Shown piece by piece: positions 5,460 to 53,994 of a stretch of DNA of 60,000 bases. A program made the translations under genes and the position numbers. The stretch's first letter is position 1, and each line of letters begins with the position of its first letter. The stretch is from positions 28,646,001 through 28,706,000 of the forward strand of contig CM097885.1 of the NCBI GenBank assembly GCA_044892525.1, in the 5' to 3' direction. The notes under the pieces are model-generated. The model was given only the letters and a program-made list of their open reading frames with translations. It was not told the origin of the DNA and did no database searches. This DNA is from Schmidtea polychroa. Lineage: Eukaryota.

Positions 5460-6055
5460 CTAAATAAACAAATACTTATCGTGGAAAACTATCATAAGTA
5501 GTGTGGATAAAATGATTTTTAGAGCCTATTGTTTTACCGAACCATTGTTTGACTTCATACGACAAGGGAAAAATTGTTAAATATATGAATCTTTATGAGA
5601 TATCGCGTAAAATGAAGAGATATCTATGAAAATTCAACCTCACTCAAGCTATTATTTACTAGAAACTATTTTTTATTTTAATCAAAAAAATTAGAAAATT
5701 TTTAGGAAATTAGAGAGTGCAAATTATGAATTGTACACAATATTAAAAAGAATGAAAGTAAAATAATTTATGAAGCTGGCAGCGTACGACTAAATGTGAG
5801 TCTAGAAATAAATCTTTATACATTAACGAAACGAATCTCACAGAAACTTCTGCAAAAATACATGAACTCACAAGCGAATGGTATGAGGACTAGTGGTACC
5901 GGATGACATGTCAAGGATACATATCAAGAACAATAGGTGCAAACAGACAATTAGCACATCTAATCAAATCACATACCCTAACAGACAAACAATACATTTT
6001 TCTCATTAAGGCAAGAAATAACATGATAAGTCTCAATTATAGCGCATACAAATTA

Positions 6056-6312
6056 TTAGGATTCTCATCCTTTTTTAAATCACTAAATAATTCCATAAAT
6101 TTTATTTAATAAAAGATATCTCAAAAAACTTGTCTGATCTTATTTTTGTTATTTAAACAAATTTAAGATTTTCTTAAAATATTTCTTTAATAAAGATATT
6201 TCTTAAAATTGATAAATTTTCTTTCTTCTTTTTAAAATATTTTTCAATAAAAATATATTTAAAATTTTTACCAAATTTCTAATTAATCTTTAAGAATCTT
6301 TTAACTTCCTCA
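6056..6312 (-). repeat. Gypsy 3' LTR (~257 bp, TGAGGA...TCCTAA)
   Basis: Follows the polypurine tract AAGGAGGGGGA on the minus strand; homologous to 28241-28449, which abuts the PBS. Confidence 0.85.
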
Positions 6313-7979
6313 TATCCCCCTCCTTAAGAAATTTTTTAAGTTTTTCCACGTTTCTTTCAATCTTTTTACCATTCTCGTTTCTTAAGATATATCGTCTGTC
6401 ATGCACTTTCTCGATTACTTTATATGGTCCCTCATATCTGTCCTGGCTTTTGTTGCGTGTTTCTAATTTTACTAACACATCATCTCCTACGTCAAATTTC
6501 CTTCTTGTTTGTTCTTCTTGTTCTTCCTTTACTTGTTTTTCTTTTGACCCGTACCATTTCTCCCTGCTAATCTTTTTTTCCAAAAACTATCTCTGCCGGG
6601 CTTATTCCTGTCGTTTTTTGTTTGGTTGCATTTAATGTAAATTCGACTTCTGGTAGTATCTCTGCCCAATCCGTCATCCTTCTGAATCGTAAAGAAGCAT
6701 TTATCCGCTTTCGTATTGTCCTGAATTGCCATTCTATCTGTCTATTTGTTTGGTGATGGTATGGACTCGAAAAACATAACTTAATATCAAGTTTCTTTGT
6801 GAATTCTCTCAACATTCCTGATTCAAACGCCTTCCCACAATCAACTTTTATCTCCTTTGGGCACCCGAATCTTAAAATCCATTTTTCTAAAATCGTTTAT
6901 TTTATTGTTTCTTCGTCTTGTCTTGTTATAGCTGTCAGGACTTGATACTTACTATACTGGTCTATTATACCCAATATATACTTCTTACGTCCTTTTGTTT
7001 CTTGCATTGGTCCACATATATCCACGAATATAATTTCGAACATTTCGGTTGATTCTAATTTTTTTACTGGTTTCTTCGTTGTATTTGTTATAGCCTTGGT
7101 TTTTTGACAAGTCTCACAACTTTGAATAGTTTCCTGAATCTGACTCCACAGGTTTTTCCCAATATATCTATCTTGCATATAATCAGCTATCTTCTCGACT
7201 CCAGCATGACACAATAGACTATGTATTTCCTTTATGGTTTCTTGTATCTCGATTTCATGTATCATCGTTCTCTTTCGTAATTCTTCTTCCAAATTTATTT
7301 GTTGATTGGTGCTTCTACCTTCTTCTCTGATCGAGTCTAGTAATCTAGTTTTTATCTTTCCTTTCTTAGCTTCTTCGTGAGCCATTTGACATTGAACACA
7401 CGTTTCACATTTAGTTCTGGACACCATGTCTGCATTTTGGTGATTAACACCCTTTCTATATTCAACGATTATATCCAAACTGCTCAAATAATTTATTCAG
7501 GTTTGGAATTGTGAAGTAAAACTGGCATCAGTATCTAAAATGAACTCCTTTCTCAGATCCGGAAAGCATAGAATCGGTGCCGTTGTGAATGCTAACTTCA
7601 TTCCTTCAATACATTATTCGTTCCTTCAGTCCATTCCAGTTTTATTTTAATCGGACCGCTACATAATTGTTCTAACATCCTTGATTTCTTTGCATACTCA
7701 CTGATGAATCTTCTATAATAATTACAAATGCCTAGAAAGCTTCGAAGTTTCTTTACGCAACTTGGCTTCCCAAAATTTTGTATAGCCTGAATCTTAGAAG
7801 GATCGGTTTTTACTCCTTCTTAACTGATTATTTGTACCTAAGAATCTGATTTTTTTCTTTATTATTTGACACTTTTCTGGGTTAATCTTTAGACCTGCTT
7901 CATCGATCGCTTTTAATACTTCACTGAGTATTGTATAATGTTTTTCTTTACTATTCGAATAAATCACAATGTCATCCAA
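6290..7979 (-). pseudogene. pol: Gypsy pol 3' half (RT from LDD, RNase H with 234 bp deletion, integrase)
   Basis: LDDIVIYS, KINPEKC, HHCC zinc region, FVDICGP, SPYHHQTN, GPY motif; stops and frameshifts. Confidence 0.9.
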
Positions 7980-8881
7980 AGTAGTGTGTATATATACCCA
8001 ACCCAAACAGCCCTCCCAACAAAAACATACCTCCATTACGCTTAAACCATTAGAAAAACAACATTAAACCTATGCTTTTATAGTATTTTAACCCCATATT
8101 TTAAACAACAACCACCCTTAATCTTTAAAGCCTCAAACTCAAAAGCTTCAAACTAAAAAGAGAATAGAAAAAAAAATGAAAAAGCATTATGAAAAAGTTA
8201 GAGGGCTATTTGGGATCAATCAAACTCCGGAGTTGATCTTTATCAGATTATTGATTTTAAATTATATAAATGAAAAAATAAATGAAAAATAGTAAAACTG
8301 CTCTGAGGGGACAGTGGTTTTTTTTTTTTTTTTTTCACTGTCCCCTCAACAGTTTTTTTGATCCGGATCATTTCAACCTCTTTCGTTTATCAAATCTCTT
8401 CTAATATACAAGCTGGCCAGACTCATACATCAGAATCAATCCGATAATAGCAGCACACCTTATTATTCGCTTCTCGCTCGAATACGATTTCATCGGCGTT
8501 TTAAGCGTGCTGCTCGAAAGTACAAATGAATTCGAAAGTGAATCCGAAAGAGGTCCGAAAACAACTGAGAAATAAATGTGCACATTAAAGAATCGATCCG
8601 GGGGTGTTCGAAAGACAGGTGGCGATAATTACCGGTTCGCCACCATCACCCGTTTCAATAATTTTTTTTTCATATTTATGTTTAAAAATAAAATAATTAA
8701 TAAAATAAATAAAATAAATAAAATAAAATAAAATAAAATAAAAATAAATAAAATAAAATATAAATCTAAGATACCCACACTATTATTTTCAAATTTTTAA
8801 AAAAAAAAAAAACTAACCACAGTTAGGATTTGAACCGCTATCCATTTGAACCACGGTGCCGGTCTAGCCCACTGCGCTATC
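7980..8881. repeat. Polinton left terminal inverted repeat (~900 bp)
   Basis: Starts AGTAGT; inner boundary defined by loss of homology with 21547-21910. Confidence 0.85.
8304..8348. other. 13 bp perfect hairpin with oligo-T loop in the TIR (copy at 23366-23412)
   Basis: TGAGGGGACAGTG-G(T)18-CACTGTCCCCTCA, extendable by AAAACTG/CAGTTTT. Confidence 0.85.
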
Positions 8882-8886
8882 GGGCT
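8813..8886 (-). ncRNA. tRNA-like Pol III unit at the inner edge of the left TIR
   Basis: A box TAGCGCAGTGG (8869-8879), B box GGTTCAAATCC (8826-8836), T14 terminator (8799-8812). Confidence 0.7.
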
Positions 8887-8985
8887 TTGGATTTTTGTTA
8901 TTTTTTATACTGTCACATTATGAAAATAAATATAAAAACATAAAAAATCAAAACAGGATATCCAATAAAAAATTTTTTTCTAAAA

Positions 8986-11900
8986 ATGAATTGTAATATT
9001 TGTAATAAAGTTTTTAAAAATAAAACTGGATTAATTTCTCACTTAAAATCGAAAGCTCATTTATTAAAAGAAAATAATCTTAATGACACAAATTCAAAAG
9101 TTTGTCCTAAATGTAAAGGAAGATTTCTACATTCTGGATATAATAAACATTTTGAAAATTGTATCGGGAAAAATAGAGAAATATTTACATGTTCTCACTG
9201 TAACTTTTCAACAAAAGTAAATTTCTATTATTTAGAACATATAAAAGAATGTAAAAATAAAAAACAAAATTCTGACGATGAGGAATGTCATTCAGAAGGA
9301 GAACCTGATCATGTTGAAAGAGAAAAATATAACTGGGATAATTTTAATCATATAGATGAATTTCAATTAAAAATTAATGGACCTGCAACTCCTGGAGAAT
9401 ATATAAATAAAAATAAAAAAAATATTAAAAATTCTTTCACTGAAGCTTTAAAAAATTATAAACCGACAAGGTATAATGTTATAAAATATAAGATTATAAT
9501 CAAAGCAAAATACTGGCGAGGAGCAGAAGAAAAGACAACACCTTTAGATGTTGAAATTGGAATACCCTTTAAATATTTATTTTCAACTAAAGGATTTGAT
9601 AAAACCATCAAAGAAATAATTCAAGCAGTAGAAGCAAAACAAGAAGAGGTTGAAAATGAATTAGGAGATTCAAACTTAGTATTCAACTCTTTCCAAACTT
9701 TAGTGATTGATTATTGGAGAGGATTACCACCTAATCCTAAATCTTATTTTCCTACACCCTTTAAATCTAAAAATGTTATAAACATACAGAATAATGATAA
9801 CAAATGTTTCGTCTGGTCAATACTTGCACATTTACACCCTCAAGAATCAAACCCTCAAAGAGTTTCAAAATACAAACAATATGAAAATGAATTAATATTT
9901 CCCAAAGGATTCAAACATCCAATGAAACTAGAAGACATTCCAAAATTTGAAAGTTTAAATAATCTTAAAATTAATATTTATGAACGTGTTAAAGGGAAAC
10001 ATGTTAATAGCAGAGAAATTATTCTAATTTATTTTTCAGATTATGAAGTTAGAGATAATGAACCCCAGGATAACACTAGGGAGATATATCTTTTAATCTT
10101 GGAACAACAAAATAATCAACATTATGTTTTAATAAAAAACTTTCAAGCTTTTACATCACCAGAGAATCCAACTAGTGGAGGAGGAACATGTAAAAGATGT
10201 CTTCATTATTCAACAACTAAAAACTCTATGATTAAACATACAAGATTTTGTGAAAAAGATGATCCAGCTTTAATTAAAATGCCTAATAATCCCAAGATGT
10301 ATTTTAAAAACTTTTCAAATTTACTACAAACAGTAGGAGTGCTTTATGGGGACTTTGAATCTATAAATCGTAAACAAGATTTGGTTAAACAATATTTAAA
10401 AATAATAGAAAAAAATAAACTCATGGATTCCTGGAACTCCTCAGGAGAGAAGATGAAACCAGAGAGGATGAAAGCCTTTCTAAGAAAAAGGAATAAACCT
10501 AATAGTGTTAAAAAAACTAAACAATTACCATCTGCTTATAAATTATTATTTAAAAGTAATTATCCTGAACTCATAGAATCTAGAGAATATACATTTCGAG
10601 GAATTTCAGAAACAGAAGTCTTGAATCATTTTACTAAAAGTATAAATGATCTTGAACATGAAATATTTAAAGTATTAAAAACAAACTATCCTCAAAATAT
10701 TTCTAATCAACAACAACAAGAATATGAAAACACTTCCAACTGTTGGATGTGTAAACAACCATTTGAAGAGTCTCCGAATATAAAAGTCCTCGATCATGAT
10801 CATTTAAAAAAGGAAAATAATTATCGAGGAGCAGCTCATAAAAATTGTAATCTTAATTGTCATACTCCTAAATTTGTACCTGTTATATTTCATAATCTTT
10901 TTGGTTATGACATACATCTATTTATTAAACATTTAGCAGCAAATGCTAAAAACTCTTTCAAAGTTATAGGACTTACAAAGGAAAAATATAAATCAGTTGA
11001 ATATGGAAAATTAAAATTTATAGACTCGTTAAACTTTCTTCAAATGTCTCTAGATGGAATAGCTAAAACAATGAAACCAGAAGATTTTAAAATCACTCGA
11101 GAATTCTTGGAAAAAAATAATATTCCTCTAGAAGAATATCCTACATGTTTAGCAAAAGGAATATATCCTTATGACTATGTTGACTCGTTTGAAAGATATA
11201 ATGAAACAAGTCTTCCTAGCCAAGAAGATTTCTATTCACAACTTCAAAAAAATCATATTACAAATCAAGAATATTCTCGAGCAAATAAAATGTGGGAATT
11301 ATTCAAGTGTAAAACTTTAGGAGAATATACAAGTATGTATTTATCCTTGGATGTTTATATTCTAGCAGATTGCTTTGAAGAATTTACAAAATCTTTTGTT
11401 CTTAAACCTTACAATTATATAACAGCACCCTCTTTAGCTTGGGATACTTTATTATATACCATTTGGACTTCAAATATAGAAGAAGCTGATAAAATTATAG
11501 ATCTTTTAACTAACCTCGATATGTTTAATCTAATTAAAACAAACATTAGAGGAGGAGTCTCTTCAGTAATGGGGAATAGAGAAATAAAAGCTAGAAATGC
11601 AATAACTACTAGCAGAATGCTTTCAAAGACCTCTGATCCATATATAAAAATTAACAATGAGGAATTAAAAGAAATATTAGAAACAATGAAAAATCCTATA
11701 TTTATACTTTATAGAGATGCAACAGCTTTATATTCAGGAATTATGATTCAATATTTACCAATGGGTGATTTCATTGAAATAGAATCATCAAAAGACCTTA
11801 TAAAAGAAATACTTTCAACATCGAAAGATTCTCCAATAGGTTACTTTGTAGAATGTGACTTATTATATCCAGATGATATAAAATCAGGAACAAGATATTT

Positions 11901-12876
11901 TCCTTTAGCTCCTGTAAGAAGAAAGATTGATATCAACGAACTTTCTGAATGGCAAATCTCACAAGATAAACCCCCAACAATGAAACTTCTTTGTGATCAA
12001 ACAGATCGAAGGTTTTATCTTTGTCACTATAGACTCCTCCAATTTTATCTTTCACGAGGTATGATATTAAAAAAAGTTCATAGTGTCATAAGATTTAAAC
12101 AGAGGCCATTCATGAAAGCTTTTATCGAGGAGAACATTAGATGTCGAAACATTGCAAAAAGAGAAGGTAACCTTTTTAAAGATAATAATTATAAACTTTT
12201 AAACAATTCAGTCTTTGGGAAGACAATGGAAAATGTAGACAAATATACTCATATTGAACTCCTAACAAATACTACCAAAGACATTAAGCGTTATAATCGT
12301 ATGCTAGGAAAGCCTACATTTAAAAACGCACAAGTATTTTCTGAAAGTCTTACTGCAATAGAACTAAAGAATTTTGAGAAAACATACAACAAACCAATAT
12401 TTATAGGGTTTTCAATTTTAGAACTTTCAAAATTACAAATGTATGAAACATATTATAACATCTTACAACCTATATATGGTTCTAATATATCAATGCATGC
12501 AATGGATACAGATTCAATGTTTTTAACAATAAGAACTCATGATTTACAAAGAGATATAGCTGAAAATCCTATACTTTCAAATTTAATAAATTCAACTGGA
12601 GAATTATTTTCATTTAAAGATGAAAAACCTTTTACTCCTATCGAAAATGGAATATTTATTCGTGCTAAACAATATTCATACGAAACATTTAGAAACCCTG
12701 AATTTATAACTAGATCATTTATATTTAAAACTCCAGAAACAGAAGAAACCATTACACATAGATATCCTATATTTCCTAAAGAAGAAAAACCTGTAAAGGA
12801 TAACAGATGTAAAGGAATACAGAGAGTGGTGGCAAAGAATCTTTCTCATCAAGATTATATATATAATTTTTATTAG
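8986..12876 (+). CDS. pPolB: Protein-primed DNA polymerase B polyprotein (Zn fingers, putative TP and vOTU regions, HNH/EndoVII insert), C-terminally truncated
   Basis: YGDFES, FHNLFGYD, KGIYPYDY, IRGGVS, KLLNNSVFGK, DTDS, KDE, KGI motifs; CWMC..DHDH..YRGAAHKNCN; usual terminal DDKR block is missing. Confidence 0.95.
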   Translation: MNCNICNKVFKNKTGLISHLKSKAHLLKENNLNDTNSKVCPKCKGRFLHSGYNKHFENCIGKNREIFTCSHCNFSTKVNFYYLEHIKECKNKKQNSDDEECHSEGEPDHVEREKYNWDNFNHIDEFQLKINGPATPGEYINKNKKNIKNSFTEALKNYKPTRYNVIKYKIIIKAKYWRGAEEKTTPLDVEIGIPFKYLFSTKGFDKTIKEIIQAVEAKQEEVENELGDSNLVFNSFQTLVIDYWRGLPPNPKSYFPTPFKSKNVINIQNNDNKCFVWSILAHLHPQESNPQRVSKYKQYENELIFPKGFKHPMKLEDIPKFESLNNLKINIYERVKGKHVNSREIILIYFSDYEVRDNEPQDNTREIYLLILEQQNNQHYVLIKNFQAFTSPENPTSGGGTCKRCLHYSTTKNSMIKHTRFCEKDDPALIKMPNNPKMYFKNFSNLLQTVGVLYGDFESINRKQDLVKQYLKIIEKNKLMDSWNSSGEKMKPERMKAFLRKRNKPNSVKKTKQLPSAYKLLFKSNYPELIESREYTFRGISETEVLNHFTKSINDLEHEIFKVLKTNYPQNISNQQQQEYENTSNCWMCKQPFEESPNIKVLDHDHLKKENNYRGAAHKNCNLNCHTPKFVPVIFHNLFGYDIHLFIKHLAANAKNSFKVIGLTKEKYKSVEYGKLKFIDSLNFLQMSLDGIAKTMKPEDFKITREFLEKNNIPLEEYPTCLAKGIYPYDYVDSFERYNETSLPSQEDFYSQLQKNHITNQEYSRANKMWELFKCKTLGEYTSMYLSLDVYILADCFEEFTKSFVLKPYNYITAPSLAWDTLLYTIWTSNIEEADKIIDLLTNLDMFNLIKTNIRGGVSSVMGNREIKARNAITTSRMLSKTSDPYIKINNEELKEILETMKNPIFILYRDATALYSGIMIQYLPMGDFIEIESSKDLIKEILSTSKDSPIGYFVECDLLYPDDIKSGTRYFPLAPVRRKIDINELSEWQISQDKPPTMKLLCDQTDRRFYLCHYRLLQFYLSRGMILKKVHSVIRFKQRPFMKAFIEENIRCRNIAKREGNLFKDNNYKLLNNSVFGKTMENVDKYTHIELLTNTTKDIKRYNRMLGKPTFKNAQVFSESLTAIELKNFEKTYNKPIFIGFSILELSKLQMYETYYNILQPIYGSNISMHAMDTDSMFLTIRTHDLQRDIAENPILSNLINSTGELFSFKDEKPFTPIENGIFIRAKQYSYETFRNPEFITRSFIFKTPETEETITHRYPIFPKEEKPVKDNRCKGIQRVVAKNLSHQDYIYNFY

Positions 12877-13379: not shown

Positions 13380-14845
13380 CAGGGTTTTAAGTTGTATTTT
13401 GACAAGCATAATATATTTTTTGACAATATTAACCAGATAATAAACAATATTAAATCTATTATTGACAATATATACTAAATTAATAACAATAAAAGCTTTA
13501 TTAATGACATTATAAATATATTTTTAGACATTCTATGCATGGCTCGACAAATAAGTCAATTTCCTGCTTCCATAGCAAATAATACAGAAATAGTAGTCGA
13601 AAGTGATAACACTGCCGAACCAGCTATCCGTAACACTTTTCGAGTACAACGAAGAAATAGTACAACTTCAAATGCTGATAGAGATCGTGTTATTACAGCA
13701 TACGATGACGGGACTTCAATAGTTGATATTTCTCGAATTTTATCAATAAAAAGAACTACAATTTATGGTATTTTGAAGAAGTACCATAACACTGGAGTGG
13801 TGGAAGCTGATAAGAGAGGCGGCGATCATCCACAAAAATTGACAGAGGATCAAAAAATCAAGTAAAAGAGTGGGTTGATAATAACTGCCAATTATCGTTG
13901 AAAGTTTTAGCGGAAAAGGTATTTACAGAGTTTCAAATTAGAATATCCACAACTTATGTATATAATTTATTATCTCGTTTTCATTATTCAATGAAAAGAC
14001 TTCATTTAATTCCAGAGAGAAGAAATTCAACAGAAGTAATTGAAACAAGAAAAGAATATGCACTTAAATTCTCTTCTATACTAAGTATATATTCAGAACA
14101 AGAATTAATATTTATTGATGAGGTGGGATTCAACGTTTCTATGAGAACAACAAGAGGAAGATCACAAATAGGCACTCCTGCAACATTAAATGTACCGACC
14201 ATACGATCAAGAAATATATCTATAGCATGTGCAATGAACAAAAATGGGTTATTGTTTTATAAATCTTTTAATCGGGCCCTCAATAAAGAGAAGTTTATCG
14301 AATATATAACAGAGCTAAAAGAAGTTTTAATTGATAAAGAGATTCACAGATGCGTATTCATAATGGATAATGTTAAGTTCCATAAAAGTCCTGAAGTGCT
14401 TAGCGCTATAAATAATGAAAATACAACTGTAAAATTTCTTCCGCCGTACTCCCCTTTTCTCAATCCTATTGAGAACATGTTCAGCAAATGGAAGGAAATC
14501 ACCAAAAGAACCAACCCCAGAAATGAAGATGATCTTATGCGAGCAATTGAAAATGGAAGTACCCTAATATCTTCACAAGACTGTAGTAATTATGTGCGAA
14601 ATATGTGGTCATATATACCAAGATGTATTGAGGGAGAAATTATTCTTAATTAAATGTCACTTAATTTTTTTGTCATTACATTTTTTGTAATATATTACAT
14701 TAATATATGTATTATTGTCATTAATATTATTTAAATTGGCATTTATTTTATTAATATTGTCATTAATGTATTTAACATTGTCAAAGATTATATTAAAATA
14801 TTCAAAAAATATGTTATGTTTGTCATAATACGACTTGAAACCCTG
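13380..14845 (+). mobile_element. Tc1/IS630-superfamily transposon (DD34E)
   Basis: TA duplications at 13378-79 and 14846-47; ~45 bp imperfect TIRs starting CAGGGTTT; TGACAAT subterminal repeats. Confidence 0.93.
13539..14653 (+). CDS. DD34E transposase split by a one-base frameshift in an A6 run (~13855)
   Basis: HTH N-terminal ORF 13539-13865; FIDEVG, MDNVKFH, LPPYSPFLNPIE in ORF 13898-14653. Confidence 0.88.
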
Positions 14846-15313
14846 TAACTTCAGGTGTGGTATAATGGTTTTGTGTAAATCCTAAAATTGTTCTAAAGAA
14901 ACTATTATTTTGAAAATGAATTCCTATATTCTCTAAAGTCATTATACATTTTGAAGTTGGTAAATCCATTTTAATTTTAATGACTCCATTTGTTTTTTTA
15001 GAAAGTATATTATTTAAATCTTTTATCTCATAAGCCCCAGGATCGATTGTTATTATAATCTTATCTGTAGCTTTTGGGCTTATATAATAAAATATGTTAT
15101 TATCTTTAGTTATATTAAAAATAGTATTATAAGCACAAAACCATAATAGACCTAATTCATAATTTAAATCTTGATCTAATTTAATTGAATCTTGAAAGTT
15201 TATAGTAAAGTCTGATTCTTTTGAATTTATAGATAAAGTTCTTGAATATTTATCTGACATTATGTTTACCATTTTTTTTAAATTATCTTCTGGAGGGTTG
15301 CGAAGCTCCATTT

Positions 15314-20767: not shown

Positions 20768-20822
20768 TTTTATATATTAAAATTTACACACACAAAATAG
20801 GATTAATTAAATATATTATGTA

Positions 20823-20897
20823 AGCCATTATAGCGGAGTGGGAATAGGCTTCAATTTTATCACCGGGAGTACCGGGTTTAATTTTCGATTTTGGTCA
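20823..20897 (+). ncRNA. Degenerate tRNA-like Pol III unit
   Basis: A box TAGCGGAGTGG, decayed B box GGTTTAATTTT, ends GGTCA then T-run; downstream flank homologous to that of the 21059 unit. Confidence 0.4.
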
Positions 20898-21058
20898 ATT
20901 TTTTTCGATATTTTTTTTTCAACGGAATCTGATTCAGCGTACTGATTTTAGTATATATTTAAATTTTCAGATGGATCTGAGTGGTAGTTGTCGAGAAAAT
21001 GAATAATTAATTATTAATTTCATCAATAAATAGTCACACATTAACAACTTATTTTATA

Positions 21059-21131
21059 TTGAGTATAGCTTAGTGGTAATAGCACTCGACTGCATTGCCA
21101 ATACTAATGGGTTCAAATCCCATTTCGGTCA
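21059..21131 (+). ncRNA. tRNA-Cys(GCA)-derived Pol III unit
   Basis: GTATAGCTTAGTGGTAATAGCACTCGACTGCA resembles the tRNA-Cys 5' half; perfect T arm ATGGG-TTCAAAT-CCCAT; T8 terminator; acceptor and anticodon stems do not pair. Confidence 0.72.
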
Positions 21132-21294
21132 TTTTTTTTCAAATCTTTTTAACGAAATATTGATCAGCATACTCGATTTAGTACTTGTACAAATTTTTAA
21201 GGTGATTGGTCAACGGCAACTCTTGGAAATTTAAGATCAAAAACGTTTTAACTACCAAAAATTAATATATCCAATAAAAAAAATATTTATAAAA

Positions 21295-21564
21295 ATGGAT
21301 GAGTTAAAAGAAAGAATGAGAAATGAATTGAATGAAGTTAAACATAAGAGAATGAAAAGAAGAGAAGAAGAACCATTAGAATACATCAAAGAGTTGATGG
21401 TAGATAATGAAAAGTATCGACATTTTTATATGAAGGCTGTAGATGTTGCTGATATAAGATTGAAGAAAATGAAACAATTACAGGAAAGAGTTAAAGAACT
21501 TGAATCGATTATTTATAGTCTAAAAAATGACAAAAATTCAAACCTTGATGGCTCAGTGGGCTAG
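21295..21564 (+). CDS. Small coiled-coil hypothetical Polinton protein
   Basis: 89 aa ORF sharing the upstream motif ATATCCAATAAAAAA..TAAAAATG with pPolB. Confidence 0.6.
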   Translation: MDELKERMRNELNEVKHKRMKRREEEPLEYIKELMVDNEKYRHFYMKAVDVADIRLKKMKQLQERVKELESIIYSLKNDKNSNLDGSVG

Positions 21565-21615
21565 ACCGGCACCGTGGTTCAAATGGATAGCGGTTCAAAT
21601 CCTAACTGTGGTTAG
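21541..21615 (+). ncRNA. tRNA-like Pol III unit at the inner edge of the original right TIR
   Basis: A box TGGCTCAGTGG (21549-59), B box GGTTCAAATCC (21592-602), T9 terminator. Confidence 0.7.
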
Positions 21616-21910
21616 TTTTTTTTTCAACATAAAATAATATTAAAAATTTGAAAATAATAGTGTGGGTATCTTAGATTTATATTTTATTTTATTTATTTTT
21701 ATTTTATTTTATTTTATTTTATTTATTTTATTTATTTTATTTATTTTATTTATTTTATTTATTTTATTTATTTTATTTATTTTTTAAACATAAATATGAA
21801 AAAAAAAATATTGAAACGGGTGATGGTGGCGAACCGGTAATTATCGCCACCTGTCTTTCGAACACCCCCGGATCGATCCCGGTAATGTGCACATTTATTT
21901 CTCAGTTGTT
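21547..21910. repeat. Surviving inner part of the original right TIR
   Basis: Reverse complement of 8560-8881 with small indels. Confidence 0.9.
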
Positions 21911-22723
21911 ATCATTATTCTGTATGTTTATAACATTTTTAGATTTAGAGGGTGTAGGAATATAAGATTTAGGATTAGGTGGTAATCCTCTCCAATAATC
22001 AATCACTAAAGTTTGGAAAGAGTTGAATACTAAGTTTGAATCTCCTAATTCATTTTCAACCTCTTCTTGTTTTGCTTCTACTGCTTGAATTATTTCTTTG
22101 ATGGTTTTATCAAATCCTTTAGTTGAAAATAAATATTTAAAGGGTATTCCAATTTCAACATCTAAAGGTGTTGTCTTTTCTTCTGCTCCTCGCCAGTATT
22201 TTGCTTTGATTATAATCTTATATTTTATAACATTATACCTTGTCGGTTTATAATTTTTTAAAGCTTCAGTGAAAGAATTTTTAATATTTTTTTTATTTTT
22301 ATTTATATATTCTCCAGGAGTTGCAGGTCCATTAATTTTTAATTGAAATTCATCTATATGATTAAAATTATCCCAGTTATATTTTTCTCTTTCAACATGA
22401 TCAGGTTCTCCTTCTGAATGACATTCCTCATCGTCAGAATTTTGTTTTTTATTTTTACATTCTTTTATATGTTCTAAATAATAGAAATTTACTTTTGTTG
22501 AAAAGTTACAGTGAGAACATGTAAATATTTCTCTATTTTTCCCGATACAATTTTCAAAATGTTTATTATATCCAGAATGTAGAAATCTTCCTTTACATTT
22601 AGGACAAACTTTTGAATTTGTGTCATTAAGATTATTTTCTTTTAATAAATGAGCTTTCGATTTTAAGTGAGAAATTAATCCAGTTTTATTTTTAAAAACT
22701 TTATTACAAATATTACAATTCAT
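21902..22723 (-). CDS. Duplicated N-terminal 273 aa of pPolB
   Basis: Identical to the pPolB N-terminus except two substitutions near the junction and the last residue. Confidence 0.85.
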   Translation of the reverse strand: MNCNICNKVFKNKTGLISHLKSKAHLLKENNLNDTNSKVCPKCKGRFLHSGYNKHFENCIGKNREIFTCSHCNFSTKVNFYYLEHIKECKNKKQNSDDEECHSEGEPDHVEREKYNWDNFNHIDEFQLKINGPATPGEYINKNKKNIKNSFTEALKNYKPTRYNVIKYKIIIKAKYWRGAEEKTTPLDVEIGIPFKYLFSTKGFDKTIKEIIQAVEAKQEEVENELGDSNLVFNSFQTLVIDYWRGLPPNPKSYIPTPSKSKNVINIQNNDNN

Positions 22724-22822
22724 TTTTAGAAAAAAATTTTTTATTGGATATCCTGTTTTGATTTTTTATGTTTTTATATTTATTTTCATAATGTGACAGT
22801 ATAAAAAATAACAAAAATCCAA

Positions 22823-22896
22823 AGCCCGATAGCGCAGTGGGCTAGACCGGCACCGTGGTTCAAATGGATAGCGGTTCAAATCCTAACTGTGGTTAG
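22823..22896 (+). ncRNA. Duplicate of the left-TIR tRNA-like Pol III unit
   Basis: A box 22830-22840, B box 22873-22883, T-run from 22897. Confidence 0.7.
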
Positions 22897-23736
22897 TTTT
22901 TTTTTTTTTTAAAAATTTGAAAATAATAGTGTGGGTATCTTAGATTTATATTTTATTTTATTTATTTTTATTTTATTTTATTTTATTTTATTTTATTTAT
23001 TTTATTTATTTTATTAATTATTTTATTTTTAAACATAAATATGAAAAAAAAATTATTGAAACGGGTGATGGTGGCGAACCGGTAATTATCGCCACCTGTC
23101 TTTCGAACACCCCCGGATCGATTCTTTAATGTGCACATTTATTTCTCAGTTGTTTTCGGACCTCTTTCGGATTCACTTTCGAATTCATTTGTACTTTCGA
23201 GCAGCACGCTTAAAACGCCGATGAAATCGTATTCGAGCGAGAAGCGAATAATAAGGTGTGCTGCTATTATCGGATTGATTCTGATGTATGAGTCTGGCCA
23301 GCTTGTATATTAGAAGAGATTTGATAAACGAAAGAGGTTGAAATGATCCGGATCAAAAAAACTGTTGAGGGGACAGTGAAAAAAAAAAAAAAAAAAAACC
23401 ACTGTCCCCTCAGAGCAGTTTTACTATTTTTCATTTATTTTTTCATTTATATAATTTAAAATCAATAATCTGATAAAGATCAACTCCGGAGTTTGATTGA
23501 TCCCAAATAGCCCTCTAACTTTTTCATAATGCTTTTTCATTTTTTTTTCTATTCTCTTTTTAGTTTGAAGCTTTTGAGTTTGAGGCTTTAAAGATTAAGG
23601 GTGGTTGTTGTTTAAAATATGGGGTTAAAATACTATAAAAGCATAGGTTTAATGTTGTTTTTCTAATGGTTTAAGCGTAATGGAGGTATGTTTTTGTTGG
23701 GAGGGCTGTTTGGGTTGGGTATATATACACACTACT

Positions 23737-25659
23737 TTGGATGACATTGTGATTTATTCGAATAGTAAAGAAAAACATTATACAATACTCAGTGAAGTAT
23801 TAAAAGCGATCGATGAAGCAGGTCTAAAGATTAACCCAGAAAAGTGTCAAATAATAAAGAAAAAAATCAGATTCTTAGGTACAAATAATCAGTTAAGAAG
23901 GAGTAAAAACCGATCCTTCTAAGATTCAGGCTATACAAAATTTTGGGAAGCCAAGTTGCGTAAAGAAACTTCGAAGCTTTCTAGGCATTTGTAATTATTA
24001 TAGAAGATTCATCAGTGAGTATGCAAAGAAATCAAGGATGTTAGAACAATTATGTAGCGGTCCGATTAAAATAAAACTGGAATGGACTGAAGGAACGAAT
24101 AATGTATTGAAGGAATGAAGTTAGCATTCACAACGGCACCGATTCTATGCTTTCCGGATCTGAGAAAGGAGTTCATTTTAGATACTGATGCCAGTTTTGA
24201 TACCATTGGGGCAGTGCTTTCGCAAAGAGATAAAGATGAAAAGGAGAAAGTAATTGCGTATGGATCACACTCGATGACGAGCCATGAAAAAGGATATTGC
24301 ATTACAAGGAAGGAACTATTGGCGGTATACTATTTTTGTATTCATTTTAAGCACTATCTCTACGGAAGAAGATTCACGCTAAGGACAGACCACAAGGCGA
24401 TCACGTTTATGATGACAACCAAGAAGCTAATTACTTCACAATTCCAAACCTGAATAAATTATTTGAGCAGTTTGGATATAATCGTTGAATATAGAAAGGG
24501 TGTTAATCACCAAAATGCAGACATGGTGTCCAGAACTAAATGTGAAACGTGTGTTCAATGTCAAATGGCTCACGAAGAAGCTAAGAAAGGAAAGATAAAA
24601 ACTAGATTACTAGACTCGATCAGAGAAGAAGGTAGAAGCACCAATCAACAAATAAATTTGGAAGAAGAATTACGAAAGAGAACGATGATACATGAAATCG
24701 AGATACAAGAAACCATAAAGGAAATACATAGTCTATTGTGTCATGCTGGAGTCGAGAAGATAGCTGATTATATGCAAGATAGATATATTGGGAAAAACCT
24801 GTGGAGTCAGATTCAGGAAACTATTCAAAGTTGTGAGACTTGTCAAAAAACCAAGGCTATAACAAATACAACGAAGAAACCAGTAAAAAAATTAGAATCA
24901 ACCGAAATGTTCGAAATTATATTCGTGGATATATGTGGACCAATGCAAGAAACAAAAGGACGTAAGAAGTATATATTGGGTATAATAGACCAGTATAGTA
25001 AGTATCAAGTCCTGACAGCTATAACAAGACAAGACGAAGAAACAATAAAATAAACGATTTTAGAAAAATGGATTTTAAGATTCGGGTGCCCAAAGGAGAT
25101 AAAAGTTGATTGTGGGAAGGCGTTTGAATCAGGAATGTTGAGAGAATTCACAAAGAAACTTGATATTAAGTTATGTTTTTCGAGTCCATACCATCACCAA
25201 ACAAATAGACAGATAGAATGGCAATTCAGGACAATACGAAAGCGGATAAATGCTTCTTTACGATTCAGAAGGATGACGGATTGGGCAGAGATACTACCAG
25301 AAGTCGAATTTACATTAAATGCAACCAAACAAAAAACGACAGGAATAAGCCCGGCAGAGATAGTTTTTGGAAAAAAGATTAGCAGGGAGAAATGGTACGG
25401 GTCAAAAGAAAAACAAGTAAAGGAAGAACAAGAAGAACAAACAAGAAGGAAATTTGACGTAGGAGATGATGTGTTAGTAAAATTAGAAACACGCAACAAA
25501 AGCCAGGACAGATATGAGGGACCATATAAAGTAATCGAGAAAGTGCATGACAGACGATATATCTTAAGAAACGAGAATGGTAAAAAGATTGAAAGAAACG
25601 TGGAAAAACTTAAAAAATTTCTTAAGGAGGGGGATATGAGGAAGTTAAAAGATTCTTAA
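23737..25659 (+). pseudogene. pol: Gypsy pol 3' half (RT C-terminal part, RNase H, integrase), duplicated copy
   Basis: LDDIVIYS; FILDTDAS..GAVLSQ..ELLAV..TDHKA; integrase and GPY; same stops as the left copy. Confidence 0.92.
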
Positions 25660-25893
25660 AGATTAATTAGAAATTTGGTAAAAATTTTAAATATATTTTT
25701 ATTGAAAAATATTTTAAAAAGAAGAAAGAAAATTTATCAATTTTAAGAAATATCTTTATTAAAGAAATATTTTAAGAAAATCTTAAATTTGTTTAAATAA
25801 CAAAAATAAGATCAGACAAGTTTTTTGAGATATCTTTTATTAAATAAAATTTATGGAATTATTTAGTGATTTAAAAAAGGATGAGAATCCTAA
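25637..25893 (+). repeat. Gypsy 3' LTR copy, preceded by PPT (25624-25634)
   Basis: AAGGAGGGGGA-TA-TGAGGA...TCCTAA. Confidence 0.85.
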
Positions 25894-26730
25894 TAATTTG
25901 TATGCGCTATAATTGAGACTTATCATGTTATTTCTTGCCTTAATGAGAAAAATGTATTGTTTGTCTGTTAGGGTATGTGATTTGATTAGATGTGCTAATT
26001 GTCTGTTTGCACCTATTGTTCTTGATATGTATCCTTGACATGTCATCCGGTACCACTAGTCCTCATACCATTCGCTTGTGAGTTCATGTATTTTTGCAGA
26101 AGTTTCTGTGAGGTTCGTTTCGTTAATGTATATAGTGTAATCTTTTGTCTTTAAGAGTAGTATGTATTTGTTATTTTCTAGTGTAAGTGTGATTTTGATG
26201 CCAAATCTTTCATTTATTCTTTTGATGGCAGATCTAAATTTGCCAAATATTGTTGCTGGGCCGCTTGTGTCGCCTTTAATGTCTGCATTTATCCATCTAA
26301 ATGTGTGGTTTATATCTATTGGTGTGTTTAAATCTGATTTTAGCTAATGCTATCATTTGTTTAATTATGAATTCCCTCATTCTTATGTCTCGTGAGTGTA
26401 GTATTTTAATGAGGTGTGTGATGCCTTGTATCATGTATTCATCAATGCTTAGCACTATGACCAGCATATACCACACTATACCCGTTGAGCAATCAATGTT
26501 GGTACTGTATCGAATGGGTGAGTACTTGCGAAAAGCGAGCGTACCTTTGTACAATATAATATGCAAGCACTCAAGCGGGTTCGCGGACTGCCGTTAGAAG
26601 GCCTTTGTCCGACTTTAATTTAGGTCCCTTAGTTCTATAATCTAACGACTGGAAAACCAGTGACCTTCACTAAAAACCTTTTTATTCATTACGCCATACT
26701 GCGAGTTAACCATTACGCTGAGGAAGTACC
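25894..26730 (-). mobile_element. Remnant of an R2/NeSL-like non-LTR retrotransposon flanking the Gypsy LTR
   Basis: QGITHLIKILHSRD and QG..FLIKARNNMISLN resemble post-RT regions of RLE-type LINEs; partial copy at 5817-6055. Confidence 0.45.
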
Positions 26731-37395: not shown

Positions 37396-37555
37396 ATGAA
37401 AAAAAACCCATCTAGTTTCGAGATAAATAATTATTTCATCCAAAACCAAAATGTTAGTCGAGGAGTATCCAGATCACACTTAGAATTCATTTGTAATTTG
37501 GATATTGATAATGAACCTGATGTAGTAAGAAGTTCTAGCATTATATGTACAATTG
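37396..37555 (+). CDS. pyk: Pyruvate kinase exon 1 (start uncertain)
   Basis: SHLEFICNLDID..RSSSIICTIG; donor gtaaa at 37556. Confidence 0.85.
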
Positions 37556-37602
37556 GTAAAATTTTATATTTACTGTTGATTTCATTATTAACTTGTTTTA
37601 AG

Positions 37603-37817
37603 GGCCGGCTTGTAGAACTGTTAGCACACTGAAAAAAATGATTGCATCTGGAATGAATATCGCCAGAATGAATTTTAGCCACGGCTCTCATGAATATCAT
37701 GCAGAAACGATTAAGCTGGTTAGAGAAGCAGTTGAAACCTTTACTCCTTACTACAGACCAGTTGCACTGGCTTTAGACACTAAAGGACCAGAAATACGAA
37801 CTGGTCTAATTCATGGA
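37603..37817 (+). CDS. pyk: Pyruvate kinase exon 2
   Basis: [33 protein letters not shown]; follows a 47 nt intron. Confidence 0.96.
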
Positions 37818-46111: not shown

Positions 46112-48740
46112 GGCTGGCAAAAGCGTCGACCGCGTAGCTATCGAAAGTAGCCCGCTAGCACTATGGAAAATTGCATATAAAAATCAGTTTTTTATTTATT
46201 GAATTTCTAACTTTATAAACATATTTAAAATAAGTTTCGATTCATATGACAAAAAAATTCCAATAAGAAACATAATATTAGTCAGATAACACTCAGAGTG
46301 TAGTAAATTTTTAGTTTGAAATTCAAATATATACAGTTAGCTAATAATCAGAATAAATTTCATGTGTTTGAACAAGTAGGCCATAAAATAAACGCAAAAC
46401 ATTGACGCTACAATCTTCGATAAGGAATAAAAAAATAAAAAACAACCAAAATAAAATACAACAAACGTGTGTTTGTCTATTTCAATTTTGAAATCAAATT
46501 GTTTTCGTTAGAAAAATTTGAAAGCTTGAAGTATTCAGTATTGAATAATACCTGCTTATAATATTAATTTCAAAATTTTTTTATTAAAAAAAATTCTTTA
46601 TAAAAGTTAAAATTTTTAATTTTTGAGTATGTAAGTGTGTTTAACATTAATTTTCATATTTAATTTATTTTAGCTTTTATTATTTTCTTGTTTTAGCCCC
46701 AATGACACAACCGGCCAAAAAAACTAAAACGTACCATTATAATACTGAATGGGAACAGGAATTTTTTTTCATAATGATGAAAGATAAGTGTGTTTGTCTC
46801 ATTTGTAATTCAAACGTAGCACTACCTAAAAGAGCTAACGTTGAACGACATTTTCGAACAGTGCACAAACAGTATGAAATTGACTTTCCATTACATTCCG
46901 AGGTACGAAAAGACAAAGTCAAGCAGTTAAAGTCTCAATTAGGTGCACAACAAACTATTTTTACGAAATTTAACTCAAAATCAAAAACAGCTACCCTAGC
47001 ATCATTCAAGGTAGTTAATATTTTGATGAAACATAAAAAACCTTTTGGAGATGGCGAAATATGGAAACAGGCGTTTGTTGAAGCTGGTGAGGTGTTATTC
47101 AAAGATTTTAAAAATAAATCCGAAATAATGGATTGTATCAACAATATGTCATTGACGCGCAATACTAGCACGCAAAGAATGGTGGACATTAGCAAAAACT
47201 TGGAAGATATTTTGCGGCAAGATATTCGAAAATGCCGCTTTTTCTCTTTGCAATTTGATGAATCTACAGATTTCACTGATACTGCGCAACTATGCATCTT
47301 CATTCGAATGGTTTTTGATGATATGTCAACCAAAGAATTATTGACTATTCTTCCAATGAAAGGACAAACAAGGGGTCAAGATATTTACAATTTATTCAAG
47401 TCTTTTATAAGTCGCACCCATTTCCCGATTCAAAGTTGGTATCAATTACCACGGATGGAGCTCCGTCTATGATCGGAAAACATGTCGGATTTGTAACACT
47501 TTGCAAAAATGATGAAGAAATTCCCAGTTTTCATTCGTATCATTGCATTATCCACCAGCAAACCTTATGCTCCAAAGTGTTGAACTCTAACTATGTAATG
47601 AATATTGCGTTTAAAATAGTAAATTCGATACGTGCAAGAAGTCTACAACGACGTCAATTTCGAACTTTGCTTGAACAATGTGAAATTGAAAATACTGAAT
47701 TATTATTACACACGGATGTAAGATGGCTTAGCCGTGCAGCATTTTTAAAACGATTTAGAGATCTTTTGCCCGGAATAAAACAGTTTTTGACTGGAAGAGA
47801 AGAATTATATCCCGAACTGGAGGATAAAAGTTGGCTGATAAATCTTGCTTTTCTTTGCGACATTACAGAGCACCTGAATAAATTAAATTTACAGCTTCAG
47901 GGGAGTCACAAATCAATTCTTGACATGATAACGGCAGTAAAGACGTTTAAAGAGAAACTGTCCTTGTTTGTGCGTCAACTAGAACGGGGTGATTTGAAAC
48001 ATTTTAAAAACATGGAAGAAGAATCCAAAAATGCGCCAGGAATTCTTAATGATAAATATACAAATCAAATTACTACCCTTTTAAATGAATTTAACACACG
48101 TTTCGCAGATTTATCTAAAATTGCAAATATTGCTATGTTCATGTCATTCCCGTTTATTGATGTTATTGATACAGAGGAGATCGCTACTCAGATTAATGAA
48201 TTTCTGGATTCAGATTCAGCTTGCTTAGAAGATGAGATAATAGCGTTGAAAAGCGACATTTACTTAAAATCAAGAGCTACAACCGAAGATAAATTTTGGA
48301 ATCTTATTTCAGAAGAAAAATATCCAATTTTGCGGAGAGTAGTTGGATATATGTCCGCATTTTTTGGATCCACCTATCTTTGTGAATCAGCCTTTTCTTC
48401 AATGAATGTCATTAAAACAAAACATCGATCTTGTTTGACAGATGATCATTTGGAATCATGCTTGCGGATCGCCATAAGCTCCTATTGCCCGAAATACGAA
48501 GAACTTGCTGATAAGATGCAGTGCCACGTATCAGGTGCAAGTAGTAGCAGTAAATAATATTATATTAAGATATGTTTACGTTCTAGTAAAGTATTATAAG
48601 TTTTTTTCTAATTCGTTTTGTATTTAAATAGAATAAATAGAATAACTACAGGTAACAATTGAAAATAGTTTATCTGGTAGACCGCCAGATTTAATTTAGT
48701 TAAAAGTCGCCCGCAAGACTTGAAAGTTTTGCCACCCCTG
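46109..48740 (+). mobile_element. Near-complete hAT (SPIN/Buster-type) transposon in a PK intron
   Basis: TIR CAGGGCTGGCAAAA / rc CAGGGGTGGCAAAA; 8 bp TSD ATATATAT at the end of a (TA)n tract. Confidence 0.93.
46702..48557 (+). pseudogene. GTF2IRD2/SPIN-like hAT transposase, one frameshift near 47434
   Basis: CLIC..RHFRTVH, DESTD, TTDGAPSM, HCIIH, VRWLSR, GSTYLCESAFS. Confidence 0.92.
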
Positions 48741-49263: not shown

Positions 49264-49578
<315 letters not shown>

Positions 49579-49676
49579 TAATCACCATTAAAATTTATTT
49601 TGTAAGATCGACTTATAAAACTCTAAAATATTTGAAACAAGTTCTCACTGTTCTAATTAGTAGTGAACCTTGTGAG

Positions 49677-52353: not shown

Positions 52354-53994
52354 AATGTTATATTTTAATATATTTAGTTGGCGATTTTCTGTTATTAAAA
52401 CTTTTCCTTCATTGATTATTAATAATGAAATAGAATAATTTATTTAATTAAAATTATCAATTTAATAAATGATTGCTTGAATGCACGTGGTAAGACTAAA
52501 AAAGTCCTAGTGCTCGCATAGAATTAATAAAGTTAATGGAACCAAATTATTTATTATGAACATAGATATTTCTTAACGTAACTTCAATTAATACCATTCT
52601 GCAATCGATTTCGTGGCATTTTGAAGAAATTTGGTTCTTTCATGACGATAAATCGTGCTTTGATTCAAATATTTGATCTCTCAGAGTGAACAACCAAAAA
52701 TAACTAGGTGCAAGATCTCGGATGGATGATTCAATTGCACAAGCCCACATTATCCTACTGCTACTTGTGCTTGATAAGATGTAAAGATTGGATCACTGTC
52801 ATAGAGTGAATTAAAGTTTGTGTTATATGACTCAAGTAGATGGAAAGTAGGAGCTTGGCCCATAGGAAATTTGACTTTAATAAAAATATTTTATGACTCA
52901 GAAAAATTTTTAAAATAAAATTATAAATTCACTCACACCCTAAAAAAACTGTATGGTAGGGGTCTTAAAAAATTTTTATTTCGCCTGTGGGTAAAAAAAC
53001 GAGTTTTGACATTTTGATTGTAATTAATGCCATTCATATTTATGGCAAACAGTTTGGTGCGTAATAAAATAATTTTTTATGTTATATTAGGATTAAAATT
53101 CATCCGTATAAATCGCCGTGCTTGTAACTACATAATTCGTAATAATCGGAATTATTTATAGTTTAATCGGAATTAATCGGAATTACTTGCTAGATTCATA
53201 GACTAAAAAATTATATTTAAAAATATTATAATTTTTTTTCGACCACTCGAGAAATGATATATTGAACTCTTGCAAAATACTATTGATTTATTTTTATTTA
53301 ATTTGCATATAAATAGGCAAAAAGTGTACATTTGTTTGTCATCAATGTCATTATTTTTATCAATCTATATATTATTACAATTATAATATAAATAGGAAAA
53401 TAATTTTACATCTGTGAATATTCACAAATTGCAAAATAGTAAATATTGTTTGGGTAGAAGATAAAATACTTTATCCAAAATTTCGGTCCCGTGAACTTTT
53501 CAGTTGAATCTCGTATATACGTTACTACTAAAATATCATTGGAAAATGTGCAATATCGCAGGGTTATTATGACTAGAATAAAATACTGGTTCTATGAAAT
53601 TAAATTGACAGGACTGAATGTTGAAATATTATCAAACATGTTTATTTAAGTTTGTACTAAATATAATTATCTGCATTTATTATAATTATCATTATGCAGT
53701 TTATTCATCTCGGTGAAATTGTCTGTCATTTCGAAATAATTATTTCGTAAATGGAATTTTAATTATTGTAGATCTTTTTGCAAATATTTTATTAATAATC
53801 TTTTAATAATGTAGAATTTACATTTTGAAATTTAGTTTATGAGTGTGATATTTAATATAATACTTTTATTGGGTTCTAATGATTAAAATACAGTTAACTG
53901 CATTTTTGAGATAAGATTTGATTAATTCAAAGTCAACTGTTCTCGATTTCATCATATAATAAAACATTGATAAATTCAAATGCCAAAATTTTAG

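What the first reader, a model, noticed from the sequence alone, without database searches (positions are those of the whole stretch)
20823..21624. Cluster of tRNA-like Pol III genes inside a Polinton: candidate VA-RNA-like system
Seen: three ~75 nt units between the MCP gene and the right TIR (20823, 21059, 21541), plus one at the left TIR edge (8813-8886, duplicated at 22823). Each has an A box (TRGCNNAGTGG), a B box at tRNA spacing (GGTTCAAATCC; decayed in the first unit) and an immediate oligo-T terminator. None forms a full cloverleaf. Known: adenovirus VA RNAs and gammaherpesvirus TMERs are Pol III, tRNA-like RNAs that counter host defence or yield small RNAs, and Polintons are relatives of adenoviruses. 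Inference: this lineage may encode its own Pol III small RNAs (RNAi/piRNA decoys, small RNA precursors) or TFIIIC insulators. I do not recall such units described in Polintons.
Basis: partly seen in the sequence, partly recalled or inferred. Interest (0 to 1): 0.9.

Follow-up and report, generated by a model that had tools for sequence, protein, structure and literature searches.

The report
Polinton's mixed Pol III gene cassette
A virus-like transposon in a flatworm-type genome carries several small genes with RNA polymerase III promoter signals: two were recently picked up from the host's ribosomal-DNA spacer, while one tRNA-like unit and a previously missed 360-base folded RNA gene sit in its terminal repeats and may make a virus-style decoy RNA, though transcription is unproven.

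Summary
The units are real: A box, B box 44-45 nt later and a T7-T14 run, with no cloverleaf. They are not one system. U1+U2 (20779-21253) are a recent capture from the host 45S rDNA intergenic spacer, which holds a tRNA-like cluster antisense to the rRNA genes; sister Polintons show the empty site. U3 and U4 are one unit inside both terminal inverted repeats, and 22823 comes from a local inverted duplication. U3 keeps its boxes but has no shared fold. One sister subfamily lacks all units. Transcription was not shown. The best reading is a composite Pol III cassette with a structured decoy-type RNA; the main rival is a TFIIIC chromatin barrier.

The parts
20779..21263 (+). Captured piece of the host 45S rDNA intergenic spacer (holds U1 and U2), bounded by a 6-bp direct repeat at 20779-20784 and 21258-21263
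   Evidence: 94-95% identical including gaps to spacer sequence next to 18S/28S genes; empty site in L114, L184, L186
20824..20905 (+). U1, tRNA-like unit (A box from 20831, B box region from 20875, T7 at 20899-20905); B box damaged in this copy only; three internal T4 runs
   Evidence: same unit in the rDNA spacer
21061..21139 (+). U2, tRNA-like unit most similar to host tRNA-Cys(GCA) among three host tRNAs tested; keeps a 6-bp T-arm and forms a new 5' hairpin
   Evidence: Rfam tRNA 27 bits, spacer version up to 38.8 bits; alignment z 11.1 to Cys vs 6.0 Lys, 2.0 Arg; fold
21295..21564 (+). 89-aa ORF of unknown function whose last codons overlap U3's A box
   Evidence: no Pfam family; 89 or 98 aa in 42 of 58 copies read; Atlas hits unnamed and weak
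21541..21624 (+). U3, tRNA-like unit at the inner edge of the right TIR; A box 21549, two B boxes, T9
   Evidence: diversity 0.086 vs about 0.008 in neighbours; box sites variable 1 of 13 vs 26 of 53 elsewhere
8799..8886 (-). U4, the same unit in the left TIR, pointing outward
   Evidence: (I9)
22823..22910 (+). U5, copy of U4 made by the local inverted duplication
8285..8651 (-). Long structured candidate Pol III gene in the left TIR: A box 8642-8632, B box 8599-8590, internal T4 8561-8558, 66-nt stem-loop 8514-8449, 61-nt pre-miRNA-sized hairpin 8447-8387, terminal hairpin 8354-8296, then T4/T5/T6
21818..21913 (+). 5' part of the same long gene in the right TIR, cut by the inverted duplication
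23063..23431 (+). Duplicated full copy of the long gene
   Evidence: (I5)
7980..8911 (.). Left terminal inverted repeat (starts AGTAGT)
8986..12876 (+). Protein-primed DNA polymerase B
   Evidence: PF03175
17295..18087 (+). Packaging ATPase, split over two frames in this copy
   Evidence: PF04665
18084..18773 (-). Retroviral-type integrase
   Evidence: PF00665
18780..19463 (-). PLA2-like virion gene (typical of Alpha-type adintovirus modules per PMC8502044 passages)
   Evidence: PF08398
19481..20767 (-). Double jelly-roll major capsid protein, divergent from the Pol III units
   Evidence: PF21738
21903..26150 (.). Inverted duplication of 5799-9806 (left end plus host flank) replacing the right terminus
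   Evidence: I1-I5; short microhomology at the junction

Best explanation
The element's ends hold a composite cassette of type 2 (A/B-box) Pol III genes, all pointing outward at roughly 240-bp steps. Shown: U1+U2 are shared with the host rDNA spacer and absent from sister Polintons; U3 and the long gene travel together and, in this subfamily, sit in both TIRs. Inferred with high odds (~85%): U1+U2 were copied from spacer to Polinton recently, by microhomology-guided template switching. Inferred (~60%): host TFIIIC binds the boxes and Pol III reads the long gene through its internal T4 to the T-runs behind the terminal hairpin, giving a ~360-nt folded RNA kept under selection as RNA; U3 is kept for its promoter (it concentrates TFIIIC/TFIIIB next to the long gene), not for its RNA. 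Inferred (~30%): the long RNA works like VA/EBER RNAs, as an abundant imperfect double-stranded decoy or Dicer substrate that blunts the host's small-RNA defence. U1/U2 are passengers or extra promoter pads.
For: Spacer origin; nested extents spacer > L112 piece > this family's piece; a 16%-diverged satellite copy already joins U2 to spacer-only flank; empty site with 6-bp repeat. Long gene: boxes at the same 44-nt spacing as U3; A box identical in 90 of 90 distinct copies, B box in 86 of 90; z -7.08 in the boxes' sense vs -4.30 antisense; 15 G-U among 108 pairs and no isolated A-C mismatch; shared alleles keep/break pairs 9/5 against 18/38 for rare ones, p 0.035, with one two-sided change in 25 of 90; a helix joins the B-box region to the 3' third, so the fold spans one transcript. 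U3 lies 201-402 bp upstream in 29 of the first 30 copies. U3: boxes conserved, no common fold. Host PIWI silences Polintons in planarians (PMC8532177, passages). VA RNAs are Dicer substrates (PMC4378190, passages).
Against: No transcript evidence. A sister subfamily (capsid ~89%, polymerase ~70% DNA identity, short TIR) shows no unit at the ends scanned, yet is abundant, so the cassette is dispensable. Copies differ by only 2.9% on average, are not independent, and 30 loci were picked by a pattern fixing parts of both boxes; the antisense version of the allele test is nearly as strong (p 0.058). Any transition at a G-U site keeps pairing, which inflates the 'keep' count. The internal T4 is present in 89 of 90 copies and the host tRNA-Cys gene sampled is followed only by T3/T4 runs, so Pol III may stop at ~95 nt; against this, host tRNA-Lys has an internal T4 and ends at T7. 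The long gene's A box misses the consensus at one of 11 places. None of 15 metagenomic relatives shows such units, but those contigs are short and mostly lack the ends. The tree of the U2 segment does not give the direction of transfer.
Confidence: 0.5

Rival explanations
1. DNA-level barrier: the boxes are TFIIIC/TFIIIB landing pads, spaced like host tRNA arrays, that keep the TIRs and the divergent capsid and polymerase promoters open against PIWI-guided heterochromatin; any RNA is a by-product.
For: U3 keeps boxes but no fold and has a doubled B box; units sit at both ends facing outward; step of ~240 bp is near the host tRNA array periods of 278-281 bp; A/B-box DNA appears at two different sites in different subfamilies; SMEDWI-2 acts on Polintons at chromatin level (PMC8532177, passages). 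tRNA genes as barriers is recalled knowledge.
Against: Does not explain 300 nt of strand-biased, G-U-rich helices behind the fifth promoter.
Confidence: 0.25
2. Neutral cargo: Polintons pick up host DNA during replication (rDNA spacer here) and hairpins arise by template switching; the pieces hitchhike with successful subfamilies and do nothing.
For: Likely true for U1+U2: diversity equal to flanks, recent capture, absent in sisters. Pokey transposons carry rDNA-spacer repeats and most rDNA pieces in transposons are thought not to help (PMC10946416 section 11). An earlier unchecked note reports a captured 7SL head in a related element.
Against: U3's boxes stay fixed in a region ten times more variable than its neighbours; decay of a DNA palindrome should give A-C as often as G-T, but 15 vs 0 is seen.
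Confidence: 0.17
3. The long module is a single-stranded-DNA structure used in protein-primed replication or packaging, and its A/B boxes are incidental.
For: It lies in the TIR; G-T wobble is also tolerated in DNA (recalled).
Against: It starts about 300 bp inside the terminus; sisters with short TIRs have it at one end only or lack it; chance of an A+B pair at this spacing is about 0.01 per element.
Confidence: 0.05
4. The long gene and U3 are captured, still unidentified host Pol III genes (7SK-like or similar) rather than element inventions.
For: Size and a closing helix plus 3' hairpin recall 7SK (recalled resemblance only); U1+U2 show that capture happens.
Against: No Rfam family beyond weak generic hairpin scores; 30 of the first 30 hits are in TIR context; not found in the two rDNA spacer types fetched. 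The other 2622 hits could not be read.
Confidence: 0.03

Closest known systems
Adenovirus VA RNA I/II and EBV EBER1/2
   Same: Internal A/B promoter, oligo-T end, tandem arrangement, strong fold with long imperfect helices (long gene); carried by a DNA virus-like element. VA/EBER facts from PMC4378190 passages.
   Different: About 360 nt instead of about 160; no Rfam match; sits in the TIRs of an integrated element; the short units are 75 nt and weakly folded; transcription and function untested.
Murine gammaherpesvirus 68 TMERs; BLV/foamy virus Pol III pre-miRNAs
   Same: tRNA-like type 2 promoters in a viral genome; a 61-nt pre-miRNA-sized hairpin inside the long gene.
   Different: Each tRNA-like unit is closed at once by T7 or more, so no tRNA-pre-miRNA chimera; the hairpin is internal to a larger fold.
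Pokey DNA transposon with rDNA IGS repeats; Cassandra/Ajax elements with Pol III promoters in their terminal repeats
   Same: rDNA-spacer piece inside a DNA transposon; Pol III promoter inside terminal repeats (PMC10946416 section 11; PMC10886601 listing only).
   Different: Carrier is an autonomous-type Polinton; the spacer piece itself consists of tRNA-like genes; promoters are tRNA-type, not 5S-type.
tRNA genes in Polinton-like and MELD viruses
   Same: tRNA-related sequence in this virus class (PMC12220804 and PMC8502044 passages).
   Different: Those are predicted full tRNAs read as codon support; these fail ARAGORN and have lost acceptor/anticodon stems.

Membership tests
VA RNA | Internal type 2 promoter (A box, B box at tRNA spacing) | tested here: met
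   U2-U5 and the long gene, spacing 44-45 nt
VA RNA | Oligo-T terminator that sets the 3' end | tested here: inconclusive
   Met for short units (T7-T14); long gene has a conserved internal T4 and T4/T5/T6 at its end
VA RNA | About 160 nt with terminal stem, central domain, apical stem; Rfam VA model | tested here: not met
   Short units 75 nt, weak folds; long gene 360 nt, other fold; no VA match
VA RNA | Abundant Pol III transcript | not testable with these tools
   Only assembled contigs of guessed RNA runs
VA RNA | Blocks PKR or Dicer | not testable with these tools
   Needs bench assay
TMER | tRNA-like head co-transcribed with downstream pre-miRNA hairpins | tested here: not met
   T7 or longer directly after each head
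tRNA gene | Cloverleaf passing ARAGORN or Rfam cut-off | tested here: not met
   0 genes; U2 27 bits, cut-off 29; spacer versions of U2 reach 32-39 bits
tRNA-derived SINE | Dispersed copies starting at the tRNA head with their own flanks and target duplications | tested here: not met
   First 30 of 4505 hits all share long flanks with Polinton, rDNA spacer or satellite; the rest were not read
Polinton/Maverick (Alpha adintovirus-type) | pPolB, integrase, DJR capsid, packaging ATPase | tested here: met
   Pfam hits
Polinton/Maverick (Alpha adintovirus-type) | Long TIRs starting AGT | tested here: met
Polinton/Maverick (Alpha adintovirus-type) | 6-bp target-site duplication | not tested
   True right end is lost in this copy; both ends of one sibling were not compared
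rDNA-spacer capture by a DNA transposon (Pokey-like) | Internal piece homologous to host IGS, absent in sister elements | tested here: met

The most novel reading that the evidence does not exclude
An integrated Polinton lineage has assembled a multi-gene Pol III cassette in its terminal repeats, topped up with tRNA-like genes taken from the host rDNA spacer, and its ~360-nt structured RNA is a VA/EBER-like decoy against the host's Dicer/PIWI defence. With similar hairpin genes noted in Polintons of other animals, Pol III counter-defence RNAs would then be a recurrent invention of this virus class, older and wider than the VA RNAs of adenoviruses.
Probability: 0.3. Interest if true: 0.85.

Novelty: new variant of a known kind. 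Interest (0 to 1): 0.62.

Why it matters
Polintons are close to adenoviruses, yet I found no paper on Pol III regulatory RNAs in them (searches; listings only; subscription journals and Repbase reports not covered). A structured Pol III RNA present in over 2,000 TIR copies in what appears to be a model flatworm, where RNAi, northern blots and public small-RNA data are routine, makes the question 'do Polintons fight small-RNA silencing with their own RNAs?' directly testable. Separately, a cluster of antisense tRNA-like genes in the spacer of one of two rDNA types is itself unusual, and its capture is a clean case of rDNA-to-virus transfer.

Tried and rejected
Expression: the look-up of sequencing runs listed no RNA holder; four runs laid were contigs only, which cannot give level, strand or ends; the stretch laid held only the first 95 nt of the long gene. 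No verdict drawn. A hairpin pattern scan of viral contigs was too loose; its 117 hits were not examined and were dropped. Other Polinton families of the genome were not reached: the capsid search returned this clade only. Published RNAs: U2, U3 and long-gene motifs are absent from the planarian tRNA supplement (positive control found; file 3 and the figure PDF not searched); miRNA supplement searches were uninformative (not readable, no miRNA list, or conserved families only), so a published miRNA from the 61-nt hairpin is not excluded. U3 as a homologue of spacer unit U0: z 4-5, little above ordinary tRNAs at 3.6-3.8, no flank match: inconclusive. Common fold for U3: rejected. SINE and intact tRNA: rejected. 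Tree for direction of transfer: unresolved, 1 of 25 branches supported. The 4505 count is not a Polinton count: the genome has 858 18S starts, many with U1/U2.

Full report
1. The element. The window holds a Polinton from 7980 to about 21913: pPolB, a split ATPase, integrase, a PLA2-like gene and a double jelly-roll capsid gene by Pfam, with a Tc1-type insertion. Siblings define TIRs of about 930 bp starting AGTAGT. In this copy the right TIR starts at 21517 and is cut at about 21910 by an inverted duplication of 5799-9806. The genome is 781 Mb with four large contigs, two rDNA types and a tRNA-Cys motif matching the planarian tRNA supplement; I infer a Schmidtea-type planarian host. The family is young and abundant: the 40 best matches to 20780-21640 are 96-100% identical and a 40-base tag of this subfamily has 526 exact hits.

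2. Five units with A box, B box and T7-T14 are where stated. A scan of the 60 kb gives 7 A+B sites, all spaced 44-45 nt, against 0.01 per shuffled element. No cloverleaf: ARAGORN 0, Rfam nothing at cut-off, U2 27 bits. U1's weak B box is private to this copy; 18 of 20 copies match the motif. U3 and U4 are one unit in the two TIRs and U5 is the duplicate of U4.

3. U1 and U2 are host rDNA spacer. An earlier scan note (e1-7879912) said that a segment shared by a satellite and a Polinton is rDNA spacer; I tested it. A search with the satellite's U2-like segment hit arrays; all 10 stretches fetched there hold 20779-21253 or part of it at 91-95% including gaps, and 9 of the 10 hold rRNA genes by Rfam. 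Two more spacers have it and one of a second rDNA type does not (3 stretches fetched of 18 wanted). The spacer has an extra unit U0 and 1-4 copies of U2 at 237-244-bp steps, antisense to rRNA. Substitution distance Polinton-spacer is 0.032, within Polintons 0.017, spacer-satellite 0.163. Direction spacer to Polinton is inferred: the spacer contains the longer L112 piece, which contains this family's piece; the old satellite copy already joins U2 to spacer-only flank; L114, L184 and L186 show the empty site, and the insert is bounded by a 6-bp direct repeat also present at the spacer breakpoint. The tree cannot confirm direction. U2 is closest to host tRNA-Cys of three tRNAs tested (z 11.1). 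Among 20 copies U1 and U2 vary as much as their flanks (0.010, 0.009 vs 0.007-0.008): no sign of selection since capture, though young copies give little power.

4. Distribution in sisters. Of 30 capsid loci picked by likeness to a distant protein (not a random sample), 13 have U1+U2+U3, 6 have U3 only, 2 have U3 with a spacer piece further out, and 9 show no unit within 1.5 kb (one partly masked, some truncated). Fifteen far-end stretches show units only in a nested copy of this family. So the cassette is not universal.

5. U3. It was not found in the spacers fetched. It is ten times more variable than its neighbours (0.086). Among 49 distinct variants from 106 hits in overlapping loci, 1 of 13 box positions varies against 26 of 53 others (p 0.01; B box alone 0 of 6, p 0.03; the A box was partly fixed by how I collected them). 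There is no common fold. This is the pattern of a kept promoter with an unconstrained RNA.

6. The missed gene. About 240 bp downstream of U3 (201-402 bp in 29 of the first 30 copies) begins a segment with A box 8642-8632 and B box 8599-8590 at the same 44-nt spacing. It folds at -133 kcal/mol, z -7.08, 0 of 100 shuffles, against z -4.30 for the other strand. It has a 5' two-helix domain, a helix joining the B-box region to the 3' third, a 66-nt stem-loop, a 61-nt pre-miRNA-sized hairpin and a terminal hairpin before T4/T5/T6. The sense fold has 15 G-U pairs of 108 and no isolated A-C mismatch. In 90 distinct copies (103 hits; mean distance 0.029) the A box is invariant, the B box intact in 86, shared alleles keep/break confident pairs 9/5 against 18/38 for rare alleles (p 0.035; antisense 4/3 vs 11/42, p 0.058), and one pair changes on both sides in 25 copies. 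Caveats: related rows, 30 loci chosen by a motif covering parts of both boxes, and transitions at G-U sites always keep pairing. The 5' pattern has 2652 hits and 0 control hits; the first 30 are all in TIR context. Rfam offers only weak generic hairpin scores. An internal T4 at base 95 is in 89 of 90 copies. Host tRNA-Lys reads through a T4 and ends at T7, tRNA-Arg at T5-T6, but the tRNA-Cys gene sampled has only T3/T4 runs behind it; the product could be 95 nt, 360 nt or both.

7. How it most likely works. Shown: anatomy, spacer homology, empty site, box conservation, strand-biased fold. Inferred: TFIIIC binding, Pol III transcription, read-through, and a decoy or Dicer-substrate role against a small-RNA defence that is known to target planarian Polintons (PMC8532177, passages). 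I give the composite cassette with a functional structured RNA 0.5, a DNA-level barrier 0.25, neutral cargo 0.17 (and that is the likeliest reading for U1+U2 alone), others 0.08. The specific anti-defence role is about 0.3.

8. Comparison. It works like VA/EBER genes at best; it fails VA membership on size, fold and Rfam, and TMER membership on layout. Pokey is a precedent for spacer capture and Cassandra for Pol III promoters in terminal repeats (PMC10946416, section 11 and passages). Full tRNAs are reported in Polinton-like viruses (PMC12220804, passages; PMC8502044, passages). Searches (listings only) showed no paper on Pol III non-coding genes in animal Polintons or on tRNA-like clusters in planarian rDNA spacers; 'Polinton' with 'B box' gave 0 papers. 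Main-text passages of PMC6884822 and bioRxiv 10.1101/2023.02.20.529178 (supplements closed) did not mention it. Supplements I could not see (PMC3854530; parts of PMC7962491 and PMC3840308) may list small RNAs from these loci. The scan's own unchecked notes describe Pol III hairpin genes in Polintons of other genomes; I did not test them and do not count them as support.

9. Verdict. Observation confirmed; interpretation partly supported and redirected. New variant of a known kind; interest 0.62. The main gap is any evidence of transcription.

Noticed in passing
L346:6553-7350 (G000:C21), also L348-L355, L357, L358: The host 45S rDNA spacer carries a cluster of tRNA-like A/B-box units (U0, U1, then 1-4 copies of U2) at 237-244-bp steps, antisense to the rRNA genes, 2.9-3.6 kb upstream of 18S. 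A second rDNA type (L356, 85-90% alike) lacks it.
   Followed up: partly
G000:C1:145793-168524 (L082-L096): A 1245-bp tandem satellite carries a 16%-diverged U2 with spacer flank; 20 copies by exact motif.
   Followed up: partly
L111, L112: Elements of the short-TIR subfamily carry U3, the long gene and a longer spacer piece at another position: a second capture or a relocation.
   Followed up: partly
window 13380-14850: Tc1/mariner-type transposon (HTH and DDE_3 ORFs) inserted in this Polinton copy, absent from siblings.
   Followed up: partly
window 5799-9806 and 21903-26150: 4-kb inverted duplication including host Gypsy-like flank; a real fold-back rearrangement or an assembly error.
   Followed up: partly
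L151:5436-5515: A related metagenomic Polinton (capsid 50% identical) has an intergenic 80-nt near-perfect hairpin (48.6 bits to a miRNA model, below cut-off) with no A/B boxes nearby.
   Followed up: partly
L126 and loci L143, L145, L120: At least three TIR end types are combined with shared interiors, and L126 has two tandem U3 units, pointing to frequent module swapping between subfamilies.
   Followed up: no
window 37431-37772, 49264-49581, 53922-54233; 46651-48557; 49949-51139: Frames that read like pyruvate kinase exons (recalled likeness, not tested) and hAT-type transposase remnants.
   Followed up: no
G000:C1:269.25 Mb, C4:76.66 Mb, C140, C333: Host tRNA genes sit in long single-isotype tandem arrays (998 tRNA-Cys motif hits; periods 278-281 and 424 bp).
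   Followed up: no
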